The position numbers and the translations under genes are program-made. Source: Lingula anatina (taxonomy: Eukaryota > Animalia > Brachiopoda). Taken from it: a stretch of DNA of 64,000 nt. Numbering within the stretch: position 1 is the stretch's first letter; every line of letters begins with the position of its first letter. Location: assembly GCA_051362555.1 (NCBI GenBank), contig CM120640.1:27366503-27430502 (forward strand), in the 5' to 3' direction. Below are positions 41,352-44,300 of the stretch, in pieces. The notes below the pieces were generated by a model. That model ran no database searches, was not told where the DNA came from, and was given only the letters and a program-made list of their open reading frames with translations.

Positions 41352-44300
41352 TTATGACCTAAACAGTAGCATTCTTTGATAACATTTCTTTCCAACAAAC
41401 CCTGCATATTCCTTGACATCGCCCTCATCTCTTGCCCTTGGATTTAGTGCCTTGTACACAGTATAGGGCATTGCTTGTCTTTCAAACAGCACTAAAACTT
41501 CATCCAGGTTTACAACACCGTTCTCGTCAACTGCAGAGGAAAATAAAAACATCAAAAACTGACTCATTCTTAAAAGATATCATCATTTGTTAGCAAGATT
41601 TTATTGTTTACTTGCTATACAGTCTCAAGTAACAAGCTCTCAGAAATAAATAGACCACCATTAATAAAAAAAAAGATAGCCATCTGTTGCTTGAAGATTT
41701 TGACTTCACATAATCAAAATTTATTATTACATGTACCTTTATCTGCATCTTCAAACCTGTTGTACTTTTTAACATCTAGTTTTGGTGTACAAGCTTCAAT
41801 GGGCACCCAAGTGCAAGCTTCAGGACAAAGAAGGAATGAAGGTACATATTGGCCCTAAACAAAAACAAAGCAATGATTCAATAAAAGTCATACATATCTC
41901 ACTTTATAGTATTTATCTTTGGATTAGCACAGGGTTGTAAACTATGTTTGGGATTAAGGATTTCTTAGCTGCTACTAAATTCAGTTTTCTAGTTATAATT
42001 TTTTTCAGTCTTGGATAATGCGTTAAAAATGGATATGTGCATTGTGATAACTATCTACTGTTAAATAAAAAACTACTAGAATTGTATCAGGAAATGTGAG
42101 AACAAACAATTACAATTGAACAAAATCTTACGACATGACAACATTGCTGTACAAACCTTGTATTTCATTTTGGGACATGAATGTATATAAAATCCCATAT
42201 AGTAATATTTTAGATCAGGAGCTTCTTTTTGTAGCGACCTTGTGAAAGCAATTTCCCTGTTAAAAAGATTTTATATGAATATACTCACATCTGTACATGT
42301 AAAATACATTTTTGAAATCCTTACAGTTAAAAAAATTATACAATTCAAACAATACACCACCCCCCTCCCAAGAAAAGTCAATATACACTTTTTCATTAAC
42401 AATACCTACTGGATTTAACACAACATTTATAATAACAGTTGTACAGTAACAGTATGTTCTTCCTTTGGTACCATTAAAGTAATATTACAAGTCAATCTGT
42501 AAGAAAATAAGACAAGAAGTAAACATACCTGAGAGCACTGTATGTCCCTAGATTTAGGAACTCGTAGTCTGGATCATAGTAGAGATAAACAGAGGAAACG
42601 CAGTAAGGTAGAATGTCTATCACTCCCACAGCTATGAGTTTTCCATCCAACCAATATTGTTGGTGAAATGAGCCATATCCACATCGAGGGCCATTGGATG
42701 GTTTTTCAGGCTGTATATTAAACAATGTGATAAAACAATTTTTGAAAGGGTAAGCCTTGTTAATTCTAAATAATTAATTATTTTTAAATCATTCTACAAT
42801 TTGAGAATATAGAAATAAATATATACTAAAATAGGAAATATAAAAAACATTTAGCATTTAGAAAACTATTTAAACATGCAATCCTTTCAAGAGAGTTAAA
42901 AGATGAGAATCATGGTAATTCATCACTGAAACTCACCTCCAAAGGAGAATCGACTAAGAAACTCTTGTAAGTGCTTTTGGTATTTTCATGAGGTTTCTCT
43001 TTGTGAATACCAATCTGATACTTTTTAAAAATTTCATATGATTGTTCATATGAGCTATCAAACTCTGCAGTGTCTCTTGCACTCCTTGCAGTGTGTGGGG
43101 TAGCTACAAGTCTAATCTACAAGGCAACAAAAACTTGTAAATGAGGTGAAGCAAGCCAATATTAGTCATACCTAAGAAAGAAAAACATGAGCAAGGAGTA
43201 TGAGGCCACCATTTTTTCACATGATCAATGTGCAAGATCCTGTAACTTCAAATTTTATCAAGATATATGTATATATATATCAAGAGCAATGGAATTTGAT
43301 AATATTGGGGGGTGGGTGTTTTTTTTCCCCATGATATGGCTTGCTTCATTCATTCAAAGCTTTTGTGTAATTTCACTTCAACTAATACCTGAAGAGGGGA
43401 TTCCACCAAAAAACGTGTGTATTGCTGTTCTGAGGGTTTGCTAGGTGGATCTTTATGTACAACCATTTGGTATTTTTTATATATGCTGTGTGACTCTTTA
43501 AATGTGGCATCAAACTCCTTGCTTCTTGGATTGCTCTGCACTAGTTTAATCTGGAAAGTATGTCATTAAACAAATACCTTTTTTTTAGATCTAATGTCAG
43601 ACGCAAAATTCAAAGTGTCATATTTGATATAATAGTACAAAAACACAAATGTGTGCCCAAAATCAGACAAATTTTAGCTTTATAAACCAAAAAAAAAAAA
43701 AAATTACACGTGCGGGTTATTTCAATTTAATGAACTTTGATTTTGCCTATAATAAATAATTCAACACATGGCATGATTCAAAACTGCTAATACAAATGAT
43801 TACCTCTAATTTATGCTTTGGATTTTCAGCTGATAATTCTTTAAGCCATTGATCTATGGATTTGGGAGAATTACCACTTGGATTTTCCTGTAAAATAGTA
43901 AGTAAACAGTATGAATATATATAAAATATATTATTGCATTGCTTTGTGCCAATTTTACCATTAATAAACAACAATATATTTGCTTCTGAAATAATACCCA
44001 ACAAGATAAAATGATACCACACTTTTTCTGTTGTTGAACTTACCATCAATCCATGTGATTCTGCCTGCCCTTCCTGGTGCACTTTTGCTAACTTTTGTTT
44101 CTTTTTCTCCAACCTGAGTAATTTTGCTTTTTTGCATGGAGGTTTAGTTGGATCTGGACCTTTACCTTTAAAATTCATAATAAACAGAACTATATTAACA
44201 TGAAGTGTGTATGGCTAAGTGATAACTTTGAAACGTCTTCAAGACTTAAAATGACACCTGATTGAGGAAGAAAGACTTTTACCAAAATTATTAGCGTGTT

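What the first reader, a model, noticed from the sequence alone, without database searches (positions are those of the whole stretch)
43070..43523. One intronic docking element can pair with either ATE1 alternative exon: candidate competing-structure splicing switch
Seen: the intron between exons A and B contains 43190-43214, read in the transcript as AAAUGGUGGCCUCAUACUCCUUGCU. It pairs with exon A mRNA AGCAAGGAGUUUGAUGCCACAUUU (43523-43500) through 22 Watson-Crick pairs, with 2 mismatches and 1 bulge. Its UACUCCUUGC core also pairs with exon B mRNA GCAAGGAGUG (43089-43080), extendable through GAG and CAC to 43070. The shared 9-mer GCAAGGAGU is read in different frames in the two exons (S-K-E in A, A-R-S in B). 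In B it lies in the N-terminal stretch that is 6 aa longer than in A, which argues for selection at the RNA level rather than the protein level. Established: mammalian ATE1 exons 7a/7b are mutually exclusive and controlled by elements R1 and R4 competing for R3. Inference: this invertebrate uses the same logic, by ancient conservation or convergence. I know of no description of it outside vertebrates but cannot search.
Basis: partly seen in the sequence, partly recalled or inferred. Interest (0 to 1): 0.9.

Follow-up and report, generated by a model that had tools for sequence, protein, structure and literature searches.

The report
Brachiopod ATE1 either-or exon RNA switch
In the lamp shell Lingula the ATE1 gene uses one of two duplicated exons, and the intron between them is predicted to fold into rival RNA shapes that likely hide one exon or the other, a different layout from the known human switch, whereas several other animals have an intron there that is probably too short to join the two exons.

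Summary
Observation confirmed, mechanism revised. The window holds ATE1 of Lingula anatina; exons A (162 nt) and B (180 nt) are both used in RNA reads, with no A-B or skipping joint listed (low depth). Element D1 (43190-43214) pairs with A as described (1 of 150 shuffles as good) and with B (4 of 1000 shuffled B exons), but D1:B is a minor predicted state. Best reading: an A:D1 versus S1:S2 switch took over this job in Lingula (about 50%). No cross-species conservation or experiment supports it yet; antisense folds as well as sense. Invertebrate ATE1 exon duplication is published; I found no paper on its RNA structure. The scan noted similar pairings in other genes, not in ATE1.

The parts
43804..43887 (-). 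Upstream constitutive exon U of ATE1
   Evidence: RNA joints to A and to B; sequence
43389..43550 (-). Alternative exon A, 162 nt, 54 codons (7a-like)
   Evidence: identical to RefSeq isoforms X3/X4
43499..43536 (-). Purine-rich site in exon A; partner of D1 (43523-43500), D2 (43528-43508) and, 5' part, S2 (43536-43526)
43117..43388 (-). Intron A-B, 272 nt, GT..AG; MFE z = -3.48, 0 of 200 shuffles
   Evidence: 18 of 470 window blocks as low after GC correction
43337..43366 (-). S1: 5' arm of the intron helix; starts 22 nt after A's donor; shares 12 of 15 letters with the exon A site
43277..43302 (-). D2: second anti-exon element; pairs with the A site (-24.2) and with the homologous E-F-D codons of B (-20.0)
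   Evidence: (1 of 400 given D1; 5 of 1000 against shuffled B)
43190..43214 (-).
43166..43185 (-). Ratchet-like motif: pyrimidine tract, AG, then GTATGA; the GT at 43171 is 55 nt from the end of the intron
   Evidence: only exact match in the window, 0.14 expected; with one mismatch allowed 8 found, 6.6 expected; use in splicing not shown
43127..43158 (-). S2: 3' arm of the intron helix; covers three branch-point-like motifs and the start of B's pyrimidine tract; ends 10 nt before exon B
   Evidence: (0 of 400)
42937..43116 (-). Alternative exon B, 180 nt, 60 codons (7b-like) with a lineage-specific 6-codon insertion
   Evidence: (100% to Lingula anatina isoform X2)
43055..43089 (-). Sites in exon B: B1 (43089-43069, partner of D1, inside the insertion) and B2 (43082-43055, partner of D2)
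   Evidence: Lingula B pairs better with D1 and with D2 than 7 of 7 B exons of other loci
42529..42710 (-). Downstream constitutive exon C
   Evidence: RNA joints from A and from B

Best explanation
Exons A and B are used one at a time, and the 272-nt intron between them likely enforces this by folding into one of two crossing, near-equal RNA shapes. Shown: both isoforms in RNA, the complementarities, their excess over shuffles. Predicted: in state I the exon A site pairs with D1 (first with D2 as the RNA is made, then D1, extended by part of S2), looping out A's 3' part and donor, so U joins B; in state II S1 pairs with S2, burying B's branch-point candidates and pyrimidine tract, so A is kept and joins C. 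The helices cross (A < S1 < D1 < S2) and S2 is shared, so they exclude each other; D1:B plus D2:B is a weaker third fold that also represses B. Inferred: this structure replaced an older steric block, since the same intron is 34-56 nt in most other protostome-type loci found.
For: RNA joints for both isoforms and none listed for A-B although it would be in frame. Four pairings beat shuffles: A:D1 1 of 150, S1:S2 0 of 400, D2 1 of 400, D1:B 4 and D2:B 5 of 1000; six other ATE1 introns give -12 to -19 for the acceptor test against -37 here. States I and II within 0.9-6.4 kcal/mol in 5 of 5 windows at 37 C and within 1.1-5.1 at 25 C; the ensemble flips with transcript length. S1:S2 has the position of human R3:R4, which acts by hindering a 3' splice site (PMC7797038, Discussion). 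A-B intron 34, 43, 47, 48, 49, 56 nt in 6 of 7 distinct loci while their B-C introns are about 240-1000 nt. One other individual differs from the window at 10 of 762 positions over the cassette against 52 of 1615 in the flanks; the 3 indels listed in this intron all miss the helix cores.
Against: No orthologous intron from a second brachiopod, so no conservation or compensatory change was tested. No strand preference: A:D1 has no G-U pair and the antisense strand folds as well or better in 4 of 4 regions, as any DNA inverted repeat would. Such repeats are not rare here: 4 of 290 blocks match A:D1, 18 of 470 match the intron fold. The predicted gain in access is moderate: B's tract 0.86 paired in II but still 0.56 in I; A site 0.80 against 0.57; one branch candidate (43168-43161) unchanged at 0.44. 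D1 pairs almost as well with a foreign A exon (L017, -28.6). Elements were found post hoc. RNA depth is too low to exclude a few percent of double inclusion. The polymorphism count cannot be placed on the elements (73 rows cut) and linked sites inflate its p value.
Confidence: 0.5

Rival explanations
1. One reading: D1 is a single docking site that pairs with exon A or with exon B and silences the one it holds; D2 acts as a helper that pairs with the other B site.
For: D1:B beats 996 of 1000 shuffled B exons; B's insertion is unique to Lingula among 13 named B exons and gives B two sites so that D1:B1 and D2:B2 can nest; if proteins or U1 cover exon A and S1 after A is chosen, this fold is the one predicted.
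Against: 4.7-9.9 kcal/mol above the best fold; not populated in the free ensemble; best intron-B duplex matched by 12 of 150 shuffles; D2:A and D1:B could form side by side and would silence both exons; the insertion looks like local tandem repeats (sequence).
Confidence: 0.15
2. Recursive splicing keeps the old steric lock: A's donor first joins the internal AG at 43172, regenerating a donor 55 nt from B's acceptor, too close to B's branch point to be joined to B; the helices mainly hide this internal site when A is skipped.
For: Only exact pyrimidine-tract-AG-GT motif in 64 kb, 0.14 expected; the remaining 55 nt equal the short introns of relatives; the same 6 letters flank the 217-nt segment at 43390-43385 and 43173-43168, like an insertion footprint; D1 holds a branch-like motif for this AG, more paired in states I and III (0.59, 0.78) than II (0.26); a donor-branch distance under 50 nt is a recognised exclusion mechanism (10.1101/133215, passages).
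Against: Motif defined post hoc; the looser pattern is at chance level, 8 against 6.6; no read joins A to 43171 in poly(A) data (which would rarely hold intermediates); the tract itself stays mostly open in state I (0.25), which would invite U-to-internal-site splicing; the long-intron locus L005 shows no such motif.
Confidence: 0.15
3. The complementarities are inverted-repeat by-products (template switching, small inverted duplications) with little role; exclusivity comes from splicing proteins, splice-site competition or is simply incomplete.
For: No sense-strand advantage and no G-U in A:D1; comparable repeats elsewhere in the window, one much stronger at 46038-46422; the B-C intron also has inverted ends; locus L005/L006 keeps both exons around a 1427-nt intron with no clean anti-exon or anti-acceptor helix in a scan without shuffle control.
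Against: Four to five separate pairings converge on the two exons and on B's acceptor in one 272-nt intron; two mutually crossing states are nearly equal in energy; lower divergence over the cassette.
Confidence: 0.2

Closest known systems
Human ATE1 exons 7a/7b, elements R1-R5 (Kalinina et al., PMC7797038; read: end of Methods, most of Results, Discussion; figures and supplements not seen)
   Same: Same gene and homologous exon pair; element(s) in the intron between the exons; one helix (S1:S2, like R3:R4) covers the downstream exon's acceptor region; in-frame exons.
   Different: No R1-like helix on A's acceptor (best -16.1); repression of A is by pairing inside the exon; two anti-exon elements; exons are 54/60 codons ending after S-P-L-x, vertebrate and other deuterostome ones 43 codons; no R2:R5-type long-range helix looked for beyond the 226-nt downstream intron; not tested experimentally.
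Crossing (pseudoknot-excluded) bidirectional pairings of Drosophila srp exon 4 (Yue et al., PMC4691838, passages; PMC6071210, passages)
   Same: Two helices whose arms cross, so that one forms at a time and each favours one exon.
   Different: srp elements are intronic, bracket the exons and activate the target exon; here one arm is coding sequence and the helices would mask signals.
Steric exclusion by short donor-to-branch distance (under 50 nt; Hatje et al., 10.1101/133215, passages)
   Same: Fits the 34-56 nt A-B introns of 6 fetched loci and the last 55 nt of the Lingula intron.
   Different: The Lingula intron is 272 nt with AG dinucleotides at 43173 and 43135, so no long AG-free zone and no sign of a distant branch point.
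ATE1 tandem exon duplication dated to Bilateria (Martinez Gomez et al., PMC8373072 and PMC9741552, passages)
   Same: Reports equivalent exons in octopus, fly and nematode; my tree groups protostome A with vertebrate 7a (95/86, 43 columns).
   Different: The passages seen say nothing on RNA structure, intron length or the two different 3' boundaries.

Membership tests
Competing-RNA-structure mutually exclusive splicing (docking/selector type) | Tandem homologous exons of similar length | tested here: met
   162 and 180 nt, 23 identical residues
Competing-RNA-structure mutually exclusive splicing (docking/selector type) | One exon per mRNA | tested here: met
   36 joint reads for A or B forms, no A-B or skipping joint listed; low depth; 0 of 4 RefSeq isoforms with both
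Competing-RNA-structure mutually exclusive splicing (docking/selector type) | Alternative helices stronger than chance that cannot coexist | tested here: met
   (prediction only)
Competing-RNA-structure mutually exclusive splicing (docking/selector type) | One docking site as the dominant shared partner of both exons | tested here: not met
   D1:B is 4.7-9.9 kcal/mol above the best fold and unpopulated; rival of A:D1 is S1:S2
Competing-RNA-structure mutually exclusive splicing (docking/selector type) | Conservation with compensatory changes across species | tested here: inconclusive
   Only same-species contigs covered the intron, substitution table cut; organism B gave no real cover; other loci have unrelated short introns
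Competing-RNA-structure mutually exclusive splicing (docking/selector type) | Disruption breaks and compensation restores exclusivity | not testable with these tools
   needs minigene or antisense experiment
Mammalian ATE1 R1/R3/R4 module | Two similar elements at both acceptors (R1, R4) pairing with one intronic R3 | tested here: not met
   B acceptor pairs (-37 to -38.8), A acceptor does not (-16.1)
Mammalian ATE1 R1/R3/R4 module | Sequence homology to R1-R5 | not testable with these tools
   element sequences are in figures and supplements of PMC7797038 that I did not see
Steric exclusion by short intron | Donor-to-branch distance under about 50 nt | tested here: not met
   272-nt intron, branch candidates 21-84 nt from B; met by length in 6 of 7 other loci
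Recursive splice (ratchet) site | Acceptor motif directly followed by a donor motif | tested here: met
Recursive splice (ratchet) site | Intermediates or lariats that use the site | tested here: inconclusive
   no such joint in 4 shallow, mostly poly(A) runs

The most novel reading that the evidence does not exclude
One exon pair older than the protostome-deuterostome split has stayed mutually exclusive while its lock was swapped: an intron too short to splice in many protostomes, R1/R3/R4 pairing in mammals, and in Lingula a 217-nt insertion that is removed first by recursive splicing to restore the 55-nt steric lock, with crossing RNA helices deciding which exon, and which acceptor, is exposed. 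Recursive splicing coupled to an RNA switch as a way to enforce exon exclusivity was not found in my paper searches.
Probability: 0.15. Interest if true: 0.8.

Novelty: new variant of a known kind. Interest (0 to 1): 0.5.

Why it matters
The human ATE1 paper states that the origin of its competing structures cannot be traced and that invertebrates lack a 7b homolog (PMC7797038, Discussion); the second point is contradicted by PMC8373072 and by isoform pairs or double-exon gene models in 13 protostome and 2 invertebrate deuterostome taxa here. If the Lingula switch is real, ATE1 shows directly that the mechanism of mutual exclusivity turns over while the exon pair persists, and that RNA structure appears where the intervening intron has grown beyond the steric range. 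The whole cassette is about 1.4 kb from U to C, so it is a small, cheap minigene test of structure against steric or recursive control.

Tried and rejected
No genome is held for this window, so no genome-wide background; I used the 64-kb window instead. No RNA holder listed among indexed runs; raw-read runs were laid instead. Organism B (X11) and run X10 gave no real cover of the cassette. Exon A alone found no protein. Fixed differences in RNA reads of another population: 3 in A and 3 in B, none in the pairing sites, but by my arithmetic this has chance about 0.5 and 0.4, so it is not counted. D1-D2 similarity (14 identities in 19 columns) is no better than other intron pairs and is not counted alone. 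Frame-shift decay rejected (162 and 180 nt). Distant branch point rejected (no AG-free zone). An R1-like helix at A's acceptor rejected. Sense-versus-antisense test gave no support. L005/L006 and L008 are too alike over the intron to reveal conserved elements, and no clean helix stood out. The tree (43 columns, 19 of 36 inner branches open) does not settle one duplication against two; no AU test was run. Of 49 loci fetched, 8 held both exons (L005 and L006 identical, so 7 distinct), the rest one exon or none. Seven paper searches found no report of RNA structure at an invertebrate ATE1 cassette; subscription journals are mostly not searched. No look-alike stretch in earlier scan findings.

Full report
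What the locus is. The minus strand carries ATE1. Exon B translates to a 100% match with Lingula anatina ATE1 isoform X2, and both exons match human ATE1 in the PDB. Exon A is 43550-43389 (162 nt), exon B 43116-42937 (180 nt), the intron between them 272 nt. Both lengths are multiples of three, so double inclusion would stay in frame. Four of nine raw RNA runs were laid: joints U-A 16, A-C 8, U-B 4, B-C 8 reads; no A-B or U-C joint was listed, at a listing threshold of 3 reads per run and 120 reads in all. RefSeq isoforms carry A (X3, X4) or B (X1, X2), none both. Exclusive use is thus supported, at low depth.

The observation. The pairings are as written: D1 (43214-43190) with A (43523-43500), 22 WC pairs, 2 mismatches, 1 bulge; D1 with B (43089-43069), 17 pairs. 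A:D1 was matched by 1 of 150 shuffled introns and by 4 of 290 other blocks of the window. The best intron-B duplex was matched by 12 of 150 shuffles; fixed D1 against shuffled B by 4 of 1000. Lingula B pairs with D1 better than 7 of 7 foreign B exons, but one foreign A exon pairs with D1 at -28.6 against -30.5.

(a) S1 (43366-43337) pairs with S2 (43158-43127): 29 pairs, -36.4 kcal/mol, covering three branch-like motifs and the start of B's pyrimidine tract, leaving 22 nt after A's donor and 10 nt before B. None of 400 shuffles reached it; six other ATE1 introns gave -12 to -19. The whole-intron fold has z = -3.48, though 18 of 470 window blocks are as low after GC correction. (b) D2 (43302-43277) pairs with the same site in A (1 of 400, given D1) and with the homologous codons in B (5 of 1000). 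(c) S1 resembles the A site (12 of 15 letters), and S2 can also pair with A, so purine-rich and pyrimidine-rich partners share a short core. (d) A pyrimidine tract-AG-GTATGA motif at 43185-43166 is the only exact one in the window (0.14 expected; a looser pattern is at chance) and leaves a 55-nt GT..AG piece before B.

Which folds compete. As the RNA grows, A pairs first with D2, then with D1; with longer 3' ends the ensemble flips to S1:S2. With helices enforced, A:D1 and S1:S2 differ by 0.9-6.4 kcal/mol in five windows, with either one ahead, while D1:B lies 4.7-9.9 above the best fold and is populated only when both the A site and S1 are blocked. A:D1 and S1:S2 cross, so they should exclude each other (inference from topology). 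Predicted access changes are moderate. The antisense strand folds as well or better and A:D1 has no G-U pair, so strand asymmetry gives no support.

Relatives. Two alternative segments, or gene models with both, occur in brachiopod, nemertean, nine mollusc, chelicerate and crustacean proteins (54-residue unit ending after S-P-L-x) and in hemichordate, sea urchin and vertebrates (43-residue unit). A 43-column tree places protostome A with vertebrate 7a (95/86) and leaves the B side open; this fits the published Bilaterian dating (PMC8373072, passages; PMC9741552, passages) and contradicts the statement in PMC7797038 that invertebrates lack a 7b homolog, but the different 3' boundaries leave two duplications possible. 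Of 49 metagenome loci, 8 held both exons (7 distinct). Six have A-B introns of 34-56 nt, beside B-C introns of about 240-1000 nt and U-A introns of 89-540 nt (4 measured); one has 1427 nt. A donor-branch distance under 50 nt is a recognised cause of exclusivity (10.1101/133215, passages), so those six are likely steric. That the short state is ancestral is inferred; the loci's taxa were not established.

Within-species variation. Four of twelve contig runs were laid. One individual differs at 10 of 762 positions over the cassette and 52 of 1615 in the flanks (Fisher p = 0.006, inflated by linkage, and the cassette is richer in coding sequence); another has 1 difference in 356 nt over A and the 5' intron but 22 in 709 nt over the stretch that includes D1, S2 and B. 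The three listed indels in the intron miss the helix cores. The substitution table was cut (73 rows unseen), so nothing can be placed on the elements.

Comparison and verdict. It works like competing-structure splicing; S1:S2 is positioned like human R3:R4, which hinders a 3' splice site (PMC7797038), and the crossing geometry recalls srp (PMC4691838, PMC6071210, passages). It fails two features of the human module: no helix on A's acceptor and no single dominant docker. Conservation and mutational rescue, the defining evidence, are untested. Seven searches found no paper on RNA structure at an invertebrate ATE1 cassette. Earlier scan notes describe similar pairings in other genes, unchecked here. 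New variant of a known kind; interest 0.5.

Noticed in passing
window 45354-45256 and 46973-46887, - strand: ATE1 has two alternative first coding exons, each with the G-Y-C motif region; RefSeq X1/X3 use one, X2/X4 the other. Danio isoforms differ in the same way.
   Followed up: partly
window 46038-46073 and 46387-46422: 36-nt inverted repeat, 92% complementary, 313 nt apart, between the two first exons of ATE1; each arm holds CCGGAAGTG (ETS-type site, recalled). Strongest duplex of the background scan. Small mobile element or promoter feature; unexplained.
   Followed up: partly
window 42936-42711, - strand: The B-C intron has complementary ends and inner AT-rich arms; role unknown.
   Followed up: no
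L012 3564-3597: A 34-nt GT..AG spacer between the two ATE1 exons, the shortest found; too short for an ordinary intron.
   Followed up: partly
proteins P0003/P0125, P0073/P0153 versus P0005/P0128, P0012/P0132, P0080/P0159: Deuterostome alternative exons are 43 codons, protostome ones 54-55, so the 3' boundary differs by 11 codons although A and 7a group together; boundary shift or double origin unresolved.
   Followed up: partly
P0002 (Batillaria gene model): Three extra tandem copies of a 5-residue piece at the end of the B segment; may be an annotation artefact.
   Followed up: no
window about 36785-38480 (+) and 49500-50420 (+): Neighbouring reading frames look like a cytochrome-b5-type (neuferricin-like) gene and a branched-chain keto acid dehydrogenase E1 beta gene; names recalled from the translations, not tested.
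   Followed up: no
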